From: a virus
Lineage: Duplodnaviria > Heunggongvirae > Uroviricota > Caudoviricetes
IMG/VR virus record: IMGVR_UViG_2526164662_000021
Location: 32,001 to 96,000 of that record
Length of the DNA: 64,000 nt
Direction: 5' to 3' (one strand)
The position numbers were made by a program, and so were the translations under genes. Within the stretch, counting starts at the first letter, position 1; the number at the start of each line of letters is the position of its first letter. Under the pieces are notes generated by a model that worked only from the letters and a program-made list of their open reading frames with translations, was not told the DNA's origin and searched no databases. Positions 11,536 to 63,859 of this stretch are shown here, one piece after another.

Positions 11536-11734
11536 GTATTTTTAAGTCACGAATGCTATCTTTTCGCATCATATTGACCTTTTAATCGTTCAGGCTTATA
11601 GTTCCGCCGTCGTAGCAAATTCTGCGACCGGGTTTAGCAGCCTGAATGATTGTGCGGACAGCCGCAGATATCCGATATTGCGGTATTTTTGTGTCCGTAA
11701 AACCGCGTTACGCCCAAATTATGGTGGGGCGTGA

Positions 11735-11795
11735 TGGGGAGGCTTCGGCCTGCTGGTTTCACAATCGCCAGTCTGCTAACCCCGTCACGTCCTGC
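11735..11795 (+). ncRNA. c4-like antisense RNA element (candidate)
   Basis: TTCACAATC (11758-11766) and CTGCTAACC (11773-11781) are reverse-complementary to GTTTAGCAG (11801-11809) and GATTGTGA (11832-11839, overlapping the icd RBS GAGG), in antiparallel order. Confidence 0.4.
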
Positions 11796-11849
11796 CACCT
11801 GTTTAGCAGCGGGTAGCAGGTTGTTAAACCTGATTGTGAGGCCGTAACT

Positions 11850-34332: not shown

Positions 34333-34408
34333 GATGGTGTAGCTCAGCGGTTAGAGCGGTTGACTGTTAATCAACGGGTCGATGGTTCAAATCCATCCAC
34401 CATCGCCA
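34333..34408 (+). tRNA. tRNA-Asn (anticodon GTT)
   Basis: Manual cloverleaf: acceptor GATGGTG/CACCATC, D-stem GCTC/GAGC, anticodon stem GTTGA/TCAAC, loop CTGTTAA, T-arm GATGG-TTCAAAT-CCATC, encoded CCA. Confidence 0.85.
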
Positions 34409-34410
34409 AT

Positions 34411-34486
34411 GCCGGTTTAGCTCAGTTGGTAGAGCGCCTGCCTTGTAAGCAGGATGTCAGCGGTTCGAGTCCGTTAACCGGCACCA
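34411..34486 (+). tRNA. tRNA-Thr (anticodon TGT)
   Basis: Manual cloverleaf: acceptor GCCGGTT/AACCGGC, anticodon stem CCTGC/GCAGG, loop CTTGTAA, T-loop TTCGAGT, encoded CCA. Confidence 0.85.
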
Positions 34487-36691: not shown

Positions 36692-36767
36692 GGCCCTTTA
36701 GCTCAGTGGTTAGAGCTGGCGACTCATAATCGCACGGTCACCGGTTCAAGTCCGGTAGGGGCCACCA
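36692..36767 (+). tRNA. tRNA with CAT anticodon (Ile2-lysidine type or Met)
   Basis: Manual cloverleaf: acceptor GGCCCTT/AGGGGCC, D-arm GCTC-AGTGGTTA-GAGC, anticodon loop CTCATAA, T-arm ACCGG-TTCAAGT-CCGGT, encoded CCA. Confidence 0.8.
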
Positions 36768-57189: not shown

Positions 57190-58510
57190 GCTCCCCGCCC
57201 GGTTGGGCGAGGCTTCCCACATCTCAGGCCGCAACCGTCTGTACGACGGATTTACGCTGGCCTCCATGGGCAGAGACGACGAGTCCCGCCGCCTTTAGTT
57301 CCAGTATCCCTTTTTGCCGGATGTTGAGTGCCGCATTGATATCGCGGTCATGCTCTGCTTCACATTCAGGGCATCGCCAGATGCGTTTATGAAGCGGCAT
57401 TTCCGGCATTTTGTAACCACAACAATGGCACGTTTTCGAACTGGCAAACCACTGGTCGAGTTTTACCAGGTGAACGCCTTTTTCCGCTGCCTTGTACTCC
57501 AGCTTTGTGATGAAGCTATGCCAGCCTGCATCACCTATTGCTCTTGCCAGATTGTGGTTTTTCATCATGTTGGCTGTTTTCAGCGTCTCGACAATTACCG
57601 CTTGGTTTTCGTCAACAATTGTACGAGAAAGTTTATGTTGAAAATCAGCACGGGCATTCGCTACCCGTTCGTGTATGGCCGCAAGACGGATTCTGGCCTT
57701 TTTACGATTCGCGCTTCCCTTTTGCTTGCGGGATAGCGCTTTTTGTTTGCGTCGCAGATTACGGCTGGCATTGATGAGATGGCGGGGATTCGCAATTTTT
57801 GCCCGGTCAGACCTGATGGCATAGTGCTCAAGTCCCATATCCACACCAGTAATCTTTTCTTCCTCCAGATACGCAGGTTTCGCTGGTGTGGGAATACCGT
57901 CTTCACAAAGGATGGATGCGTAGTATTTCCCGGTGGCACTGCGAGTGATTGTTATGCTCGTCACTTTTCCCGTCATTACACGGTGTATACGCGCTTCTAT
58001 CGGTGCCAGCTTAGGAATTTTGATGGCATTCTCCAGTACTTTAATCCCGACACAATGGTAGCTCGATTGTTTCCCATGTTTACGTTTAAACGTCGGGAAC
58101 CGGGCTTTCAGCTTCGGATTAAAAAAGTTGGAAAACGCCACATCAAGATTAATCACCGCCTGTTGCAATGCCATTGAATCAAATTCTTTAAGCCAGGCAT
58201 ACTTACGGGACTTCTTCGCCACAGACAACAACGGTTTTAAATCTTTACGCGGACTTAAATTCACTCCGTGTCGCTGGTAAGCGTGTTTTTTGATGTGAAG
58301 AGCTTTGTTGTACGCAAAACGCACGGCGCCGAACTGGGCGTTGAGATACTCAGCCTGTTTAGTGGTTGGATAGATGCGTACTTTTGTCGCTCTTAACATA
58401 GTCACCGCTCATTGATACAGGTTTTTATGCTAACACCGTAATGATTTTTTTTTAAAGCCCTGTGGGCTTTCCCGCCTTTCCTCCCCGCCCGCATTGGGCG
58501 AGGGTTCTCG
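57190..58510 (-). mobile_element. IS200/IS605-family tnpB-only element
   Basis: tnpB flanked by direct copies of a hairpin-containing ~23-bp sequence: CTCCCCGCCCGGTTGGGCGAGG (57191-57212) and CTCCCCGCCCGCATTGGGCGAGG (58481-58503); no tnpA. Confidence 0.6.
57224..58405 (-). CDS. tnpB: TnpB (IS605 OrfB family, RuvC-like nuclease with C-terminal zinc finger)
   Basis: 393 aa; N-terminal MLRATKVRIYPTTKQ; C-terminal CHCCG...CPEC zinc finger and DRDINAALNI RuvC-III-like motif. Confidence 0.8.
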   Translation of the reverse strand: MTMLRATKVRIYPTTKQAEYLNAQFGAVRFAYNKALHIKKHAYQRHGVNLSPRKDLKPLLSVAKKSRKYAWLKEFDSMALQQAVINLDVAFSNFFNPKLKARFPTFKRKHGKQSSYHCVGIKVLENAIKIPKLAPIEARIHRVMTGKVTSITITRSATGKYYASILCEDGIPTPAKPAYLEEEKITGVDMGLEHYAIRSDRAKIANPRHLINASRNLRRKQKALSRKQKGSANRKKARIRLAAIHERVANARADFQHKLSRTIVDENQAVIVETLKTANMMKNHNLARAIGDAGWHSFITKLEYKAAEKGVHLVKLDQWFASSKTCHCCGYKMPEMPLHKRIWRCPECEAEHDRDINAALNIRQKGILELKAAGLVVSAHGGQRKSVVQTVAA

Positions 58511-58606: not shown

Positions 58607-59800
58607 GTGACCTGGGACGATCACAAGAAGAATTTTGCTCGCCTGGCGCGAGATGGTGGTTACACCATCGCACAGTATGCCGCCGAGTTTAATCTTAACC
58701 CTAATACCGCACGTCGTTATCTCCGTGCCTTCAAAGAAGACACCAGGACTGCGGACAGCCGCAAGCCAAATAAGCCAGTCAGGAAGCCACTAAAAAGCAT
58801 GATCATTGATCACTCTAATGATCAACATGCAGGTGATCATATTGCGGCTGAAATAGCGGAAAAACAAAGAGTTAATGCCGTTGTCAGTGCCGCAGTCGAG
58901 AATGCGAAGCGCCAAAATAAGCGCATAAATGATCGTTCAGATGATCATGACGTGATCACCCGCGCCCACCGGACCTTACGTGATCGCCTGGAACGCGACA
59001 CCCTGGATGATGATGGTGAACGCTTTGAATTCGAAGCTGGCGATTACCTGATAGATAACGTTGAAGCGCGGAAGGCCGCGCGCGCTATGTTGCGTCGGTC
59101 CGGGGCCGATGTTCTGGAAACCACTCTTCTTGAAAAGTCTCTTTCTCATCTCCTTATGCTGGAGAACGCCAGGGATACGTGTATTCGCCTGGTGCAGGAA
59201 ATGCGCGATCAGCAAAAAGACGATGATGAAGGTACTCCGCCTGAATACCGTATCGCGAGCATGCTAAACAGCTGTTCCGCGCAGATAAGCAGCCTGATCA
59301 ACACCATTTACAGCATCCGGAATAACTATCGAAAAGAAAGCCGGGAGGCGGAAAAGCACGCTTTGTCTATGGGGCAAGCTGGCATTGTTAAGCTGGCATA
59401 CGAACGAAAGCGTGAAAATAACTGGTCAGTGCTGGAAGCGGCTGAATTCATCGAGGCGCATGGAGGAAAAGTGCCGCCCCTGATGCTGGAGCAAATCAAA
59501 GCCGATCTGCGTGCTCCTAAGACCAATACCGATGACGAGGAAAACCAAACAGCATCTGGCGCTCCATCACTTGAAGATCTGGATAAAATCGCGCGAGAAC
59601 GGGCCGCCAGCCGCCGCGCTGATGCCGCATTGTGGATTGAGCATCGTAGAGAAGAAATTGCCGATATCGTCGATACAGGCGGTTATGGTGATGTCGATGC
59701 GGAAGGCATATCAAACGAAGCATGGCTTGAACAGGATCTGGACGAAGACGAGGAGGAAGACGAAGAAGTTACCCGCAAACTGTACGGGGATGATGATTAA
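58607..59800 (+). CDS. pacA: Terminase/pacase small subunit PacA
   Basis: GTG start with AAAGGAAG RBS; 397 aa ([10 protein letters not shown]...); contains the pac site; acidic C-terminus. Confidence 0.85.
58800..58986. promoter_or_regulatory. pac packaging site (clustered TGATCA/G hexamers with GATC Dam sites)
   Basis: Four TGATCA at 58800, 58808, 58819, 58834 and TGATCG/TGATCA at 58930, 58942, 58953, 58981, inside pacA. Confidence 0.75.
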
Positions 59801-61284
59801 TGGCCAGAAGTTGCGTAACGGACCCACGTTGGCGCGAGCTGGTGGCGCTATATCGTTATGACTGGATTGCGGCCGCTGATGTGTTGTTTGGGAAGACACC
59901 AACCTGGCAGCAGGATGAGATCATTGAGTCCACGCAGCAGGACGGCAGTTGGACAAGTGTGACCTCCGGCCATGGTACTGGTAAGTCGGATATGACGAGT
60001 ATTATTGCAATACTCTTCATCATGTTTTTCCCCGGCGCTCGCGTCATTCTGGTCGCTAACAAAAGACAGCAAGTCCTTGATGGTATTTTCAAATACATAA
60101 AGAGCAATTGGGCTACTGCTGTTAGCAGATTCCCGTGGTTGTCGAAGTATTTCATTCTTACAGAAACGTCTTTTTTTGAGGTGACTGGCAAGGGTGTTTG
60201 GACAATATTGATAAAGTCCTGTCGCCCCGGAAATGAGGAGGCGTTGGCTGGTGAACACGCCGATCATCTCTTGTATATCATCGACGAAGCGTCGGGTGTG
60301 AGTGATAAAGCATTCAGTGTGATAACAGGTGCGCTGACCGGTAAGGATAACCGTATTCTGCTTCTTTCCCAGCCTACGCGACCTTCAGGCTATTTCTACG
60401 ATTCACACCACAGACTAGCTATTCGCCCGGGAAATCCTGATGGATTGTTTACTGCGATAATACTGAATAGTGAAGAATCTCCGCTTGTAGATGCAAAATT
60501 TATACGAGCAAAACTTGCGGAGTATGGCGGTCGTGATAACCCCATGTACATGATCAAAGTACGTGGTGAATTTCCCAAATCGCAAGATGGCTTTCTTCTT
60601 GGTCGTGATGAGGTTGAGCGGGCGACGCGGCGAAAGGTCAAGATTGCCAAAGGATGGGGCTGGGTTGCATGTGTTGACGTTGCTGGTGGCACAGGACGAG
60701 ATAAGTCCGTTATTAATATCATGATGGTGTCCGGCCAGCGAAATAAACGCCGTGTAATCAACTATCGTATGCTGGAATACACAGACGTTACAGAAACGCA
60801 GTTAGCCGCCAAGATTTTCGCAGAATGTAACCCAGAACGGTTCCCGAACATAACCATAGCTATTGATGGCGATGGCTTGGGGAAATCGACGGCTGATCTG
60901 ATGTACGAACGCTATGGTATTACCGTCCAGCGTATCCGCTGGGGTAAAAAGATGCACAGCCGTGAAGATAAAAGCCTTTATTTCGATATGCGCGCTTTCG
61001 CGAATATTCAGGCGGCAGAAGCTGTAAAATCAGGGCGTATGCGGCTTGATAAGGGGGCTGCGACTATAGAGGAAGCATCAAAGATACCGGTCGGGATAAA
61101 TTCCGCAGGTCAATGGAAGGTGATGTCAAAGGAAGATATGAAGAAAAAACTCAACCTGCACTCACCGGACCATTGGGATACATATTGTTTCGCTATGTTG
61201 GCGAACTATGTTCCCCAAGATGAAGTGCTTAGCGTCGAAGACGAAGCGCAGGTTGATGAAGCTCTGGCATGGCTTAATGAGTAA
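59800..61284 (+). CDS. pacB: Terminase/pacase large subunit PacB
   Basis: 494 aa; start overlaps pacA stop (TAATG); Walker A-like GHGTGKS and Walker B-like [11 protein letters not shown]. Confidence 0.85.
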
Positions 61285-61288
61285 AAAA

Positions 61289-61305
61289 CTTGCTCTAATA
61301 AATTG
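61289..61305 (+). promoter_or_regulatory. C1 operator-like 17-mer upstream of second icd-ant module
   Basis: CTTGCTCTAATAAATTG (15/17). Confidence 0.55.
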
Positions 61306-61436
61306 TGTTTTTTGACTGCCGATGTTACATTGAACCTGACCTCTTGCGCCTTGAGGCATTTTCGGTTTATGCTTATCAGGCACCTCATTAAAACGGGTGC
61401 CGGGATTGGAACCCCGGATAATGTCAAAGGCGACAC

Positions 61437-61460
61437 AGACGCCAAAAGCGTCTTTTTTTG
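61437..61460 (+). terminator. Terminator/attenuator-like hairpin in leader
   Basis: AGACGC-caaaa-GCGTCT followed by TTTTTTT; an analogous hairpin plus T-run sits in the first module leader at 11662-11690. Confidence 0.45.
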
Positions 61461-61534
61461 TGTCATGCCATCGCACGGCCATACGTAGCGTTTAGCTCAG
61501 AGATCAATGGTAGTGCTGGCTGGGCTGCCGAAAG

Positions 61535-61592
61535 GCAGGCCGGTTCCCTTTGACGCCGGTAGTTCCAACCCAGTCAGTGCTACCGCCATTGA
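61535..61592 (+). ncRNA. c4-like antisense RNA element of second module (candidate)
   Basis: CCTTTGAC (61548-61555) is reverse-complementary to GTCAAAGG (61626-61633, overlapping the icd2 RBS AAGGAGG); GCTACCGC (61578-61585) pairs with GCGGTAGC (61608-61615). Confidence 0.35.
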
Positions 61593-61644
61593 GATTGGAA
61601 CCTCACGCGGTAGCTCCTTAACTTAGTCAAAGGAGGCTGCCATT

Positions 61645-61866
61645 ATGGCTACTATCCCTACCCCAACTCATCCTGAATTTATCTGGCGCTTTTACTCCTG
61701 CCAGAAACGTCACTATCACTTCGTTATTGCACCGACAGAAGATGAGGCTCGCTCTCAGCTTCCTGATGCACCCTGTATTTTCTCCGCCCGTTTTTCTACT
61801 GATTCGCGCAATTCTCTCAGTTACTGGTGCCTCCCTGTTAACGCTTCTGCTCAGGAGGGACTATGA
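61645..61866 (+). CDS. icd: Icd-like protein, second copy
   Basis: 73 aa (PEFIWRFYSCQKRHYHFVIAPTEDEARSQL), about 75 percent identical by eye to the copy at 11850; coupled to downstream ant-like gene. Confidence 0.6.
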   Translation: MATIPTPTHPEFIWRFYSCQKRHYHFVIAPTEDEARSQLPDAPCIFSARFSTDSRNSLSYWCLPVNASAQEGL

Positions 61867-62975
61867 GAACGTCATTAGTCACCCGTGAAGAGATGATTGA
61901 GGCAATTGAACAGCACACTGCCTGTATCAGTACCAGGGATATACCAGGCGTTATGGCCAACTACTTCATGATCACCAAACAACTTTACCGGAGAAAGGAC
62001 AAGAACGCTGTTCACCGCATTCTGTTGTCTGATATCCGCGAATACCTGCTCGAACAGGGTCATCTGAATTACGCAACCGTCGCAGCCGAAGCACGCAAGG
62101 AGGCACACAGAATGAAAGCAACTAACGTTAAATCAGAAAAAATTCATGCACCTTCAGTTCAGGAATCGGAGCTGGTGGTTGTTCAGAATCAGTCTGATGA
62201 AATTCCCGTTCTGGAATGGCTGGGAGTGCGTGTAGTGACAACTGAGACTCTTGCTAAAGGGTATGGGACCGATGAAGCGAATATTCGTAAAAATTTGTCT
62301 CGCAACCCCGATCGCTTTGAAGAAGGTAAGCATTACTATCTCTTAACTGGTTCAAAATTAAAGGAATTTAAAATGCTAGTGACTATTAGTCACTTGGTTA
62401 GCAAATATACAAGTCAGGTAATTCTCTGGGCCGAGCGCGGAGCGGCACGCATGTCTAAGATCGTGGACACAAATGAAGCGTGGGCATTCTTTGAAAAACT
62501 GGAAGACAGCTACTTCCGACAAAAAGAACAGCAACCGATCGCAATCCCCCAGACGCTTCCAGAAGCTCTGCGCCTGGCTGCCGAACTGGCTGAACAAAAG
62601 CAGCTTCTGGAACAGAAAGCCCACCAGCTAAATCAGCAGCTGGTGGCCGCCGCTCCTAAAGTCGATTTTGCCGACCGGGTATCAGTAGCTAAAGGGATCC
62701 TGATTGGGAATTTTGCAAAGGTTGTTGGACTTAAGCAAAACGCGCTGTTTGCCTGGTTACGGGAGAACGGCATCCTGATAGCGTCCGGTGGACGTAAAAA
62801 TGTGCCGTTCCAGCAGTACATCAATGCGGGGTATTTCACGGTGAAAGAAGTGGTGCTGGATGATGAAGATGGCTACCAGATACGGTTGACGCCTCAATTA
62901 ACGGGTAAAGGCCAGCAGTGGTTGACGCGTAAACTGCTCGATGCTGGCTTGTTAAAACCGGTGGCGGCTGAATAA
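61863..62975 (+). CDS. ant: Antirepressor Ant-like protein with KilAC domain, second copy
   Basis: 370 aa; N-terminus parallels Ant at 12068 (HTACI.TR.IPG..ANYFMIT); C-terminal KilAC domain nearly identical to Ant1; extra central insert. Confidence 0.65.
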   Translation: MRTSLVTREEMIEAIEQHTACISTRDIPGVMANYFMITKQLYRRKDKNAVHRILLSDIREYLLEQGHLNYATVAAEARKEAHRMKATNVKSEKIHAPSVQESELVVVQNQSDEIPVLEWLGVRVVTTETLAKGYGTDEANIRKNLSRNPDRFEEGKHYYLLTGSKLKEFKMLVTISHLVSKYTSQVILWAERGAARMSKIVDTNEAWAFFEKLEDSYFRQKEQQPIAIPQTLPEALRLAAELAEQKQLLEQKAHQLNQQLVAAAPKVDFADRVSVAKGILIGNFAKVVGLKQNALFAWLRENGILIASGGRKNVPFQQYINAGYFTVKEVVLDDEDGYQIRLTPQLTGKGQQWLTRKLLDAGLLKPVAAE

Positions 62976-62980
62976 TGGAA

Positions 62981-63010
62981 GAATGCCCGGTTGATGCCGG
63001 GCATAATTTA
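62981..63010. terminator. Bidirectional terminator between ant2 and c1
   Basis: ATGCCCGG-ttgat-GCCGGGCAT hairpin with flanking A/T runs. Confidence 0.5.
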
Positions 63011-63859
63011 TTGCGCGCTTTCGGGGTTGTCGTTTACTGGCTGCCCCTTCTTGGTTTTACGGCTGCGTGTAACTGATGCGGCTGACTTAACCTTTTTCTC
63101 TTCGCGAGTGATGGCAATTTGTTTTTTTACATTTTCAATATCTGCCAGGCGATATATTTTTGCTTGCGGCCAGCGGTCGCAGATGATCGGTTCTATAGAG
63201 TCATAAAGGCTAAATTTTGCTTTCTCGAATTCACCGTTGATGATAATTCCATCACGGAGAGTTTCATCGCAGATAAACACACCACATAGCGGCACATGGT
63301 AACTAACTGATTTACCATCATTGTAGTTAGGGCTACTAGAAATGTAATGGACGCGCAGCATTGTTTCGCTAAAGCCGTGTACGCGCATACGGAATTTTTC
63401 ATCCTCCGGGTACTGCTTCATTAGCTCTTTTGTTGCTTCCAGGTTCTCTATGTATTTCGCACTGTGCTCATTGATCCCCGCGCTTTTCTGGATGCGAATG
63501 TCCTTATCAATCAGATGAATAATGCGGCCAGCGGTCATGTTGACGCTGTTCACAGCTTCTGTCTGATAAGTCGTAACCTTACGCACACCGCGAAGGATGT
63601 TAGGCACTGGATATAAAATAGTCTTTGGGATATTGAGGTCTGGGTACTGTTCCAGTTCCCGCGCCATTAAAGTCCATTTATCAATTTCAGCCTGAATGCT
63701 GTCCGTTTCTTTGAACGGCAGAACGACAACCGGGCGAACAGGACGACCGTCGCTGGCGGCATCAACGTGTTGGGCGCGTGCAACAGCTTTTTTTAGAAAG
63801 AGATCCCTGAAGCTGACGAACTCCTGGTACAGTTGTTCGCCGTAGACATAATTTATCAT
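63008..63859 (-). CDS. c1: C1 repressor of lysis (P1 C1-like)
   Basis: 283 aa (MINYVYGEQLYQEFVSFRDLFLKK...); GGAGGAGG RBS; operator-like 17-mer upstream; matching operator-like sites across the window. Confidence 0.85.
   Translation of the reverse strand: MINYVYGEQLYQEFVSFRDLFLKKAVARAQHVDAASDGRPVRPVVVLPFKETDSIQAEIDKWTLMARELEQYPDLNIPKTILYPVPNILRGVRKVTTYQTEAVNSVNMTAGRIIHLIDKDIRIQKSAGINEHSAKYIENLEATKELMKQYPEDEKFRMRVHGFSETMLRVHYISSSPNYNDGKSVSYHVPLCGVFICDETLRDGIIINGEFEKAKFSLYDSIEPIICDRWPQAKIYRLADIENVKKQIAITREEKKVKSAASVTRSRKTKKGQPVNDNPESAQ

What the first reader, a model, noticed from the sequence alone, without database searches (positions are those of the whole stretch)
61535..61635. Second module has its own RBS-complementary upstream element with a different sequence
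CCTTTGAC (61548-61555) is the exact reverse complement of GTCAAAGG (61626-61633), which overlaps the icd2 RBS AAGGAGG. GCTACCGC (61578-61585) pairs with GCGGTAGC (61608-61615). GTTCCAA (61563-61569) pairs with TTGGAAC (61594-61600), so a pseudoknot-like fold is possible. The paired sequences differ from module 1, implying an independent antisense specificity.
Basis: seen in the sequence. Interest (0 to 1): 0.5.

Follow-up and report, generated by a model that had tools for sequence, protein, structure and literature searches.

The report
Second C4 antisense-RNA immunity module
The flagged stretch is a second copy of phage P1's well-known C4 antisense RNA, sitting in front of a second icd/antirepressor operon and carrying its own recognition sequences, so it is an ordinary though well-documented member of a known phage immunity system.

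Summary
The three complementarities are real, though five of the six coordinates are off by 1 nt. They are not chance: 12 of 20,000 shuffles give three helices of 7 nt or more.

The region is a C4 antisense RNA (Rfam RF01695, 77.1 bits, 61503-61590). It lies in a 1.7-kb insert between pacB and c1 of a P1-like plasmid prophage. CCUUUGAC sits in the loop of the second hairpin (b'). GUUCCAA is the single-stranded a'. They pair with a2 (61595-601) and b2 (61626-33, overlapping the icd2 Shine-Dalgarno).

It sits upstream in an IsrK-type terminated small RNA (RF01394, 62.6 bits).

Across 125 distinct homologous leaders, a', a1 and a2 change together, as do b', b1 and b2. At least 25 allele combinations exist. 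Predicted cross-pairing with module 1 is about 12-14 kcal/mol weaker than cognate pairing. Independent specificity is therefore supported.

The third pair (GCUACCGC/GCGGUAGC) is the 3' strand of the C4 closing stem pairing with an "anti-arm" between a2 and b2. This alternative helix is conserved and covaries. It is not annotated in P1, and its role is unexplained.

Verdict: a new member of a known kind, of modest interest.

The parts
61289..61305 (+). C1-repressor operator-like site (CTTGCTCTAATAAATTG). It sits in the same position relative to the promoters as Oc4/Op51 in P1.
   Evidence: It has 2 mismatches to the P1 operator consensus. The window holds 13 such sites against 0.39 expected. 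The geometry matches the P1 RefSeq annotation.
61303..61331 (+). Candidate C1-controlled promoter (TTGTGT-N17-TACATT), positional equivalent of P1 P2c4/P51a. This is an inference.
   Evidence: The offsets from the operator equal those annotated in P1. The generic promoter scan did not call it.
61344..61373 (+). Candidate constitutive promoter (TTGCGC-N18-TATGCT), positional equivalent of P1 P1c4/P51b. Its predicted start is about 61378-61380.
   Evidence: Positions 2 (A) and 6 (T) of the -10 hexamer are invariant, and T1 is nearly invariant, in 125 homologues (positions A36, T40 and T35 of the first row). Hexamer positions are and the P1 geometry.
61380..61458 (+). IsrK-type small RNA carrying the upstream target copies. 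a1 (61406-61412) lies in a hairpin loop and b1 (61423-61430) is single-stranded. It ends in an intrinsic terminator (61437-61453 plus a U run).
   Evidence: Rfam isrK RF01394 scores 62.6 bits against a gathering score of 50. c4-a1b1 RF03163 scores 23.1 bits, below threshold. The a1/b1 strings are and their covariation with a'/b'.
61503..61590 (+). C4 antisense RNA, second copy. The predicted mature RNA is about 61509-61587. The closing stem is 61509-61524 with 61569-61584, hairpin 1 is 61525-61538 and hairpin 2 is 61539-61560. A GCCA tail lies at 61585-61588.
   Evidence: Rfam C4 RF01695 scores 77.1 bits against a gathering score of 45. The fold is -46.5 kcal/mol with z = -5.0. In the closing stem 100% of cells are paired and 11 of 16 pairs change on both sides. 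The mature ends are inferred by analogy with the 77-nt P1 C4 feature.
61547..61554 (+). b' recognition segment (CCUUUGAC) in the loop of hairpin 2.
61562..61568 (+). a' recognition segment (GUUCCAA) in the single-stranded joint before the 3' strand of the closing stem.
61595..61601 (+). a2 target (UUGGAAC), flanked by a short stem (61590-61593 with 61602-61605).
   Evidence: In the a' x a2 helix 99.6% of cells are paired and 5 of 7 pairs change on both sides.
61607..61614 (+). Anti-arm (GCGGUAGC), complementary to 61579-61586, the 3' strand of the C4 closing stem plus 2 tail nt. It forms a helix mutually exclusive with the lower closing stem.
   Evidence: 93.3% of cells are paired and 6 of 8 pairs change on both sides, against 35-50% in slid controls. 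There are 17 distinct arm/anti-arm sequence pairs after excluding one spurious TGTCA/TGACA match in P1-type rows. No such feature appears in the P1 annotation.
61626..61633 (+). b2 target (GUCAAAGG), overlapping the icd2 Shine-Dalgarno AAGGAGG (61630-61636).
   Evidence: In the b' x b2 helix 87.3% of cells are paired and 7 of 8 pairs change on both sides. The unpaired cells are the P1-type rows, which are misaligned by one column.
61645..61866 (+). icd2, a 73-aa Icd-like cell-division inhibitor. Its stop overlaps the ant start (ATGA).
   Evidence: The ORF is. It is 73% identical to the module 1 Icd. It is annotated as Icd-like in plasmids.
61863..62975 (+). Antirepressor gene (370 aa) with ORF6N and KilAC/ANT domains.
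   Evidence: Pfam ANT scores 109.5 bits and ORF6N 62.1 bits. The 3' third is 86% identical at nucleotide level to P1 ant.
62983..63004 (+). Terminator-like hairpin between the ant stop and the convergent c1 gene.

Best explanation
The window is a P1-like plasmid prophage. Relative to P1 it carries a 1.7-kb insert between pacB and c1, and that insert is a complete second immI-type anti-immunity operon.

A promoter region built like P1's (C1 operator, then two promoters) drives one transcript. The transcript reads through, in order:
- an IsrK-type small RNA with target copies a1 and b1 and its own terminator;
- a tRNA-like C4 RNA;
- target copies a2 and b2;
- icd2;
- a translationally coupled antirepressor gene.

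By analogy with P1, C4 is cut out of the transcript: RNase P makes the 5' end, and the 3' end lies next to a GCCA tail. C4 then accumulates. It pairs through its hairpin loop (b', CCUUUGAC) and its single-stranded joint (a', GUUCCAA) with b2 and a2 on the mRNA. This covers the icd2 Shine-Dalgarno, blocks icd2 translation, and with it blocks antirepressor synthesis.

The recognition sequences differ from those of module 1 at 3 of 7 positions in a and most positions in b. The two C4 RNAs should therefore each control only their own operon, as in P1/P7 heteroimmunity.

The short IsrK-type RNA presents the same a and b sequences. It is predicted to bind C4 slightly better than the mRNA does. It most likely acts as a competitor (anti-antisense) that can relieve repression, as was shown for IsrK in Gifsy-1.

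Shown here: family membership, architecture, the pairings and their covariation, and predicted orthogonality. Inferred: processing, direction of regulation, C1 control, and the decoy role.
For: Family membership. Rfam C4 scores 77.1 bits and isrK 62.6 bits, both above their gathering scores.

Architecture. The order and spacing of operator, two promoters, a1, b1, C4, a2, b2, icd and ant match the curated P1 annotation (window positions).

Covariation in 125 distinct homologous leaders (alignment A3).
- C4 internal helices plus a'xa2 and b'xb2: 96.3% of cells paired, against 30-49% when partners are slid. 28 of 41 pairs change on both sides, and 0 of 500 shuffles reach the observed values.
- a1xa' and b1xb': 90.9% paired, against 28-51% slid. 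13 of 15 pairs change on both sides.

Allele diversity. At least 25 combinations of loop and joint sequence exist. Each has its exact complement downstream, and usually upstream as well. All four combinations of two a alleles with two b alleles occur.

Orthogonality. Cognate duplexes are -24.0 and -25.6 kcal/mol, against -10.4 and -12.5 for the cross combinations. Decoy duplexes are -27.3.

Co-resident modules. In 10 multi-module contigs the modules differ in a' and/or b' in all but one.

Downstream genes. They are intact: Icd is 73% identical to module 1 Icd, and the antirepressor has ORF6N and KilAC domains.

Distribution. The same insert is in phages RCS47, JL22 and 673R5. It is also in 301 plasmid records at 80% coverage or more. 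P1 has only 24 nt at this site.

Literature.
- C4 blocks ant expression by pairing around the RBS and underlies P1/P7 heteroimmunity (PMC12197685, PMC8198154).
- The C4 precursor is an RNase P substrate (cited in PMC11143913).
- IsrK supplied in trans activates translation of the downstream orf45-anrP (PMC4825925).
- IsrK and C4 have been recognised as a paired system shared by P4, P1, P7 and N15 (PMC3632133).
Against: - There are no expression, processing or reporter data for this locus. Everything functional is by homology.
- A strong terminator (61437-61453) lies between the promoter and C4, so C4, icd2 and ant depend on read-through.
- The transcript makes C4, its target and a competitor in fixed proportion. 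The net sign of regulation therefore depends on RNA stabilities, which were not measured.
- The IsrK-type RNA is predicted to bind C4 more tightly than the target does. This is compatible with a circuit whose main output is activation, as in Gifsy-1, rather than repression.
- An ORF (61507-61626) overlaps C4 and is translated in the Gifsy-1 relative. Part of the conservation could therefore be coding.
- The generic promoter scan found no promoter in the leader.
Confidence: 0.85

Rival explanations
1. The leader is a purely cis-acting switch. The complementarities fold within the one unprocessed transcript, as a self-repressing leader or pseudoknot. The only trans-acting RNA is the short IsrK-type RNA, which opens the fold and activates translation, as described for Gifsy-1. 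No diffusible C4 repressor matters.
For: - In the minimum-free-energy fold of 61375-61660, a1/b1 pairs with a'/b' in cis, the 3' arm pairs with the anti-arm, and the SD sits in a local hairpin. The energy is -116.3 kcal/mol with z = -5.2.
- The anti-arm helix, which can only form in cis before processing, is conserved and covaries.
- In Gifsy-1 the full-length RNA is translationally inactive and IsrK in trans activates it. In that study, constitutive expression of the C4-like region did not prevent the IsrK effect (PMC4825925).
Against: - The RNA keeps every feature of the processed P1 C4: a 16-bp acceptor-like stem with 100% pairing, and a GCCA tail.
- In P1 and P7, C4 acts in trans and determines immunity specificity (PMC12197685).
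- A stable processed RNA of about 80 nt (STnc1160) is also seen in Gifsy-1 (PMC4825925).
- The diversity of a/b alleles and the differing alleles of co-resident modules are what selection on trans specificity predicts. A purely cis switch would not need them.
Confidence: 0.12
2. The conserved feature is a small protein gene, the 39-aa ORF 61507-61626 ("Ash family" or orf45-like). The inverted repeats are incidental to its coding sequence.
For: - Pfam Phage_ASH scores 32.2 bits against a cutoff of 26.
- PGAP annotates an "ash family protein" here in many plasmids.
- An ORF starting at the conserved AUGG is open in all 125 homologues.
- The equivalent orf45 is translated in Gifsy-1 (PMC4825925).
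Against: - The stop position is not conserved: it falls after 14 to 46 codons, or the ORF fuses to icd in 67 of 125 homologues.
- Substitutions are compensatory on the two sides of RNA helices, with 926 cells changed on both sides against 319 expected. Coding constraint does not produce this.
- The Gifsy-1 authors found the nucleotide sequence conserved but the amino-acid sequence variable (PMC4825925).
- The most variable segments are exactly those complementary to the targets.
Confidence: 0.04
3. The module is a decaying duplicate or chance complementarity with no function.
For: No direct functional data exist. The insert is absent from P1 itself.
Against: - Only 12 of 20,000 shuffles reach three helices.
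- All parts are intact.
- The identical allele pair occurs in 15 of the 161 pattern instances, 144 of which had full flanks and were scored.
- The insert is found in 301 plasmid records.
- The covariation is three-way.
Confidence: 0.02

Closest known systems
P1/P7 immI operon: C4 antisense RNA with a1 b1 / a2 b2 targets, icd, ant1/2 (Rfam RF01695 and RF03163)
   Same: The order and spacing of operator, two promoters, a1, b1, C4, a2, b2, icd and ant are the same. The RNA fold is the same. b' lies in the hairpin-2 loop and a' in the joint. b2 overlaps the icd SD. The icd stop overlaps the ant start. Icd is 73% identical.
   Different: - The recognition sequences differ: a is UUGGAAC against UUAGCAG, and b is GUCAAAGG against GAUUGUGA.
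- The location differs: between pacB and c1 instead of next to sim.
- The upstream a1/b1 element scores as isrK rather than c4-a1b1.
- There is an extra spacer of about 20 nt before C4.
- The antirepressor has an ORF6N central domain that P1 Ant1 lacks.
Gifsy-1 IsrK / STnc1160 (orf45) / anrP locus of Salmonella (PMC4825925; Rfam RF01394)
   Same: The upstream RNA matches the isrK model over its full length, at 62.6 bits. It ends in a terminator that must be read through. It is complementary over 20 nt or more to the downstream C4-like RNA, and an antirepressor gene follows. An ORF starts in the 5' arm of the C4-like RNA.
   Different: - Here a separate icd gene with its own SD (b2) lies between the C4 RNA and the antirepressor. 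In Gifsy-1, orf45 itself is coupled to anrP.
- The host element is a P1-like plasmid prophage, not a lambdoid prophage.
- Activation by IsrK has not been tested here.
P4 CI RNA with seqA/seqC, and N15 CB RNA controlling antC (same Rfam clan CL00128; PMC3632133)
   Same: Each is a processed, tRNA-like small RNA cut from the leader of the operon it controls. Target repeats lie both upstream and downstream.
   Different: P4 CI acts by premature transcription termination of replication genes, and its targets are not an RBS plus an antirepressor operon. Among the clan models, the C4 model is the one that matches here.

Membership tests
C4 antisense RNA (Rfam RF01695; P1/P7 c4) | Sequence-plus-structure match to the family covariance model above its curated threshold | tested here: met
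   77.1 bits against a gathering score of 45, covering the full model 1-87 at 61503-61590.
C4 antisense RNA (Rfam RF01695; P1/P7 c4) | tRNA-like long closing stem enclosing two hairpins, supported by compensatory changes | tested here: met
   In the closing stem 100% of cells are paired and 11 of 16 pairs change on both sides. In hairpin 1, 4 of 5 pairs covary. The single-sequence fold has z = -5.0.
C4 antisense RNA (Rfam RF01695; P1/P7 c4) | Two exposed segments (a', b') complementary to a2 and b2 in the downstream leader, with b2 covering the ribosome-binding site | tested here: met
   There are exact 7-nt and 8-nt complements. b2 overlaps AAGGAGG by 4 nt. For covariation, 5 of 7 and 7 of 8 pairs change on both sides.
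C4 antisense RNA (Rfam RF01695; P1/P7 c4) | Second copy of the targets (a1, b1) upstream of the RNA on the same transcript | tested here: met
   TTGGAAC lies at 61406-12 and GTCAAAGG at 61423-30. 13 of 15 pairs change on both sides.
C4 antisense RNA (Rfam RF01695; P1/P7 c4) | Context: leader of an icd-antirepressor operon under a C1 operator | tested here: met
   The icd homologue is and the KilAC antirepressor. The operator-like site has 2 mismatches. The geometry equals the P1 annotation. C1 binding itself was not tested.
C4 antisense RNA (Rfam RF01695; P1/P7 c4) | Excision from the precursor by RNase P to a stable RNA of about 77 nt that represses icd/ant in trans | not testable with these tools
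   Only sequence features consistent with this are present: an acceptor-like stem and a GCCA tail at 61585-88.
IsrK (Rfam RF01394) | Match to the covariance model above threshold, ending in an intrinsic terminator | tested here: met
   62.6 bits against a gathering score of 50, covering the full model at 61380-61458. The terminator hairpin is at 61437-61453 with a U run.
IsrK (Rfam RF01394) | Hfq binding, and trans-activation of downstream antirepressor translation | not testable with these tools
   This is known only for Gifsy-1 (PMC4825925). Here the only support is predicted pairing of -27.3 kcal/mol with C4.
c4-a1b1 motif (Rfam RF03163) | Match above the gathering score | tested here: not met
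   23.1 bits against 46.7 at 61367-61420. Module 1 scores 55.5 bits. Conversely, isrK scores 43.7 bits on module 1. The two models describe related elements, and module 2 belongs to the isrK-like branch.

The most novel reading that the evidence does not exclude
The anti-arm helix makes the C4 precursor a two-state RNA. The helix pairs 61579-86 with 61607-14 and has an inner stem that places a2 in a loop.

In state one, the full closing stem forms. The RNA is an RNase P substrate, the AUG at 61507 is buried and then destroyed by cleavage, and a repressor is released.

In state two, the anti-arm captures the 3' strand. The 5' arm and its AUG are free, and the upstream ORF is translated through a2 and the anti-arm up to the icd2 SD. 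The same transcript is then an active mRNA instead of a source of repressor.

This partition would be a conserved and so far unannotated layer of control in all C4/IsrK systems, including P1 itself. A variant of this reading is that the 3' strand plus GCCA acts as a natural external guide that directs RNase P to cut the mRNA next to the anti-arm.
Probability: 0.2. Interest if true: 0.55.

Novelty: new member of a known kind. Interest (0 to 1): 0.3.

Why it matters
For annotation: hundreds of P1-like plasmids carry this insert, and only its ORFs are described. The RNA genes that control it are unannotated, and the C4 gene is often mis-called as an "ash family protein".

For biology: a prophage with two antirepressor operators of different RNA specificity should be immune to more relatives. 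When it superinfects, it should escape lysogens that hold only one matching C4. That would make recognition-sequence alleles, which mix freely (at least 25 combinations), the currency of an immunity arms race among phage-plasmids that also spread resistance genes.

The conserved anti-arm helix is a concrete, cheap-to-test addition to a textbook antisense system.

Tried and rejected
- The first collection scan used the wrong loop length (N10 instead of N9) and found nothing. It was repeated correctly.
- The classical P1 papers could not be read: the Lobocka 2004 genome paper and the Hartmann 1995 RNase P paper are not held. Statements on processing therefore rest on reviews that cite them and on the P1 RefSeq annotation.
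- The generic sigma-70 scan found no promoter in the leader. The promoters proposed rest on position relative to P1 and on invariant -10 positions in the alignment.
- MAFFT placed the P1-type rows one column out of register in the b' loop and left gaps at a2. They count as "not paired" or as gaps. I checked them by eye and with a register-free helix search rather than realigning.
- A local anti-SD hairpin (CUCCUU 61614-19 with AAGGAG) looked attractive in the window. It is absent from the other subfamilies, so I dropped it as a general feature.
- Complementarity between the spacer upstream of C4 and the 5' arm was seen in the window and in P1 but not in the largest other subfamily. I did not pursue it.
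- Pfam gives no family for Icd2.
- Chance repeats and protein-only explanations were considered and rejected, as set out under the rivals.

Full report
**Setting.** The window is a P1-like plasmid prophage. pacA (58607-59800) and pacB (59800-61284) are followed by two ORFs of 73 and 370 aa on the + strand. The convergent c1 repressor gene lies at 63008-63859. In phage P1, pacB and c1 are only 24 nt apart. The 1,723 nt at 61285-63007 are therefore an insert relative to P1.

The same insert is found in several places:
- phages JL22, RCS47 and vB_EcoM-673R5, at 93-96% identity;
- 301 plasmid records at 80% coverage or more, almost all Escherichia;
- phage D6, whose own anti-immunity region is 91.5% identical over the RNA part.

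[quoted passage not shown] RCS47" (PMC6906374). It does not mention any RNA.

**The observation.** All six strings exist and pair as stated, but five of the six coordinates are 1 nt off (true positions are in the parts list). GTCAAAGG (61626-33) overlaps AAGGAGG (61630-36), and the icd2 ATG is at 61645. Three exact inverted repeats of 7 nt or more within 101 nt occurred in 12 of 20,000 dinucleotide-preserving shuffles.

**What it is.** Rfam places a C4 antisense RNA at 61503-61590 (77.1 bits, gathering score 45). It places an isrK RNA at 61380-61458 (62.6 bits, gathering score 50). Module 1 of the same window has C4 at 11717-11802 and the c4-a1b1 motif at 11596-11648.

The RNA folds as follows (-46.5 kcal/mol, z = -5.0):
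- a 16-bp closing stem, 61509-24 with 61569-84;
- hairpin 1, 61525-38;
- hairpin 2, 61539-60.

GUUCCAA is the single-stranded joint before the 3' strand of the closing stem; this is a'. GCUACCGC is the end of that 3' strand plus the first two bases of a GCCA tail (61585-88).

The first sits in a hairpin loop of the isrK-type RNA and the second in its single-stranded part. That RNA ends in a strong intrinsic terminator (61437-53 plus a U run).

The curated P1 record lists exactly this series: operator Oc4, promoters P2c4 and P1c4, a1, b1, the 77-nt C4, a2 (starting 4 nt after C4), b2, icd, ant1. Module 2 reproduces the series at nearly the same offsets:
- operator-like site at 61289-305, with 2 mismatches; the window holds 13 such sites against 0.39 expected;
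- TTGTGT/TACATT at 61303/61326;
- TTGCGC/TATGCT at 61344/61368.

In the TATGCT hexamer, positions 2 and 6 are invariant across 125 homologues.

Icd2 is 73% identical to module 1 Icd. The 370-aa protein has ORF6N and KilAC antirepressor domains.

**Comparative test.** I collected loci in two ways: through the Icd protein, and through a pattern of the conserved hairpin-2 stem that left the loop and joint free. This gave 161 instances and 125 distinct leader sequences.

The loop and the joint are the most variable parts, with at least 25 allele combinations. The reverse complement of each is found downstream next to the SD, and usually upstream too. Within the closest subfamily, two a alleles (GGAAC, GAGAC) and two b alleles (GUCAAAGG, GCAAAAGG) occur in all four combinations. 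In each case all three copies are changed together.

Formal counts on alignment A3 are as follows.

| Structure | Cells paired | Slid controls | Pairs changed on both sides |
|---|---|---|---|
| C4 internal helices + a'xa2 + b'xb2 | 96.3% | 30-49% | 28 of 41 |
| a'xa2 alone | 99.6% | - | 5 of 7 |
| b'xb2 alone | 87.3% | - | 7 of 8 |
| a1xa' + b1xb' | 90.9% | 28-51% | 13 of 15 |

For the first row, none of 500 shuffles reached the observed values. The shortfall in b'xb2 is due to the P1-type rows, which MAFFT put one column out of register.

**Independent specificity.** The predicted duplex energies between the exposed part of each C4 and each leader are given below.

| | Target 1 (a2b2) | Target 2 (a2b2) |
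|---|---|---|
| C4-1 | -25.6 kcal/mol | -12.5 kcal/mol |
| C4-2 | -10.4 kcal/mol | -24.0 kcal/mol |

P1 and P7 are heteroimmune through small differences in these segments (PMC12197685, PMC6906374). Both the P1 allele (UUAGCAG) and the other allele (UUGACAG) are in my set. In ten contigs that carry two or three modules, the modules differ in a' and/or b' in all cases but one.

**The upstream RNA.** The isrK-type RNA and the P1 a1b1 region are the same kind of element. isrK scores 43.7 bits on module 1, and c4-a1b1 scores 23.1 bits on module 2. The two align hairpin for hairpin.

Its complementarity to C4 extends beyond a and b to give -27.3 kcal/mol, slightly better than the mRNA target. In Gifsy-1, IsrK supplied in trans pairs with the C4-like region (there called orf45/STnc1160) and switches on translation of the antirepressor (PMC4825925). 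Barquist et al. already treat IsrK and C4 as one immunity system shared with P4 (seqA/CI), P1, P7 and N15 (PMC3632133). I therefore read the short RNA as a competitor for C4. This is inference.

**The third complementarity.** GCUACCGC with GCGGUAGC is not a target interaction. It is an alternative partner for the 3' strand of the closing stem. Together with a short inner stem (61590-93 with 61602-05), it puts a2 in a hairpin loop. It excludes the lower half of the C4 stem.

The helix is conserved:
- 93.3% of cells are paired and 6 of 8 pairs change on both sides, against 35-50% in slid controls;
- there are 17 different arm/anti-arm sequence pairs, for example CCAUCACC/GGUGAUGG, CUCACCAC/GUGGUGAG and CGUCACC/GGUGACG;
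- P1 itself has CCUGCCACC/GGUAGCAGG with one mismatch.

It is not among the features of the very detailed P1 record, and I found no mention of it in the papers I could read.

Its role is open. It may divide precursors between a processable form and a translatable form. The AUG of an ORF that overlaps C4 (61507-61626) lies in the 5' arm and would be freed. The equivalent orf45 is translated in Gifsy-1, where its RBS is said to be sequestered by pairing with its own 3' end (PMC4825925). Alternatively, the helix may extend the trans complex from the 3' overhang. It requires an unprocessed, half-open C4, and it is unproven.

**Rivals.**
- A purely cis-acting leader is compatible with the long-range fold and with the anti-arm. 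It does not explain the allele diversity, or the retention of every feature of the processed P1 RNA.
- A protein-only reading rests on Pfam Phage_ASH at 32.2 bits. It fails on the variable stop position and on the compensatory pattern.
- Chance or decay is excluded.

**Verdict.** The element is a new, unannotated member of the C4/IsrK antisense immunity family, in a position not used by P1. It is not surprising to a specialist. The conserved anti-arm helix and the free assortment of recognition alleles are the parts worth a follow-up.

Noticed in passing
window 61579-61586 with 61607-61614 (inner stem 61590-61593 with 61602-61605); module 1: about 11790-11798 with 11813-11821: A conserved, covarying helix joins the 3' strand of the C4 closing stem to an "anti-arm" between a2 and b2. 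It is mutually exclusive with the lower closing stem. It is present in every subfamily, including P1, and is absent from the P1 RefSeq feature table.
   Followed up: partly
window 61507-61626 (+): A 39-aa ORF overlaps the C4 RNA. It hits Pfam Phage_ASH (32.2 bits) and is annotated "ash family protein" in plasmids. The same-frame ORF is open in all 125 homologues, but its stop falls after 14 to 46 codons. In 67 of 125 homologues it runs in frame into icd. The Pfam family may largely be translated C4 genes, although the Gifsy-1 equivalent (orf45) is translated.
   Followed up: partly
window 61367-61458 and 11596-11690: Rfam isrK (RF01394, no clan) and c4-a1b1 (RF03163, clan CL00128) hit each other's loci below threshold (43.7 and 23.1 bits). 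They appear to describe one homologous element under two names.
   Followed up: yes
loci L010/L075/L081, L097, L127, L203 and others: Contigs carrying two or three C4-icd modules are common. The modules differ in a' and/or b', and L127 differs in a' only. The exception is L010, which has two copies with the same allele 1.5 kb apart.
   Followed up: partly
window 57224-58405 (-): A 393-aa ORF has HTH_OrfB_IS605, OrfB_IS605 and Cas12f1-like TNB domains (a TnpB of an IS200/IS605-type element). It is inserted between lpa and pacA, where P1-like relatives have only about 85 nt. This is probably the IS609 reported in related plasmids (PMC6906374).
   Followed up: partly
window 61484-61502: A spacer of about 20 nt lies between the IsrK terminator and C4 and is present only in the window's subfamily. 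It contains TAGCTCAG (61493-61500), the D-arm motif of the three tRNA genes elsewhere in the window.
   Followed up: no
window, 13 sites (for example 11519, 13189, 30129, 33651, 61289, 63954): Matches to the 17-bp C1 operator consensus are strongly enriched, at 13 against 0.39 expected. This gives a map of likely C1-controlled promoters in this P1 relative.
   Followed up: no
window 34333-34486 and 36692-36767: There are three tRNA genes: Asn-GTT, Thr-TGT, and a CAT anticodon called Met. They correspond to the P1 tRNA set.
   Followed up: no
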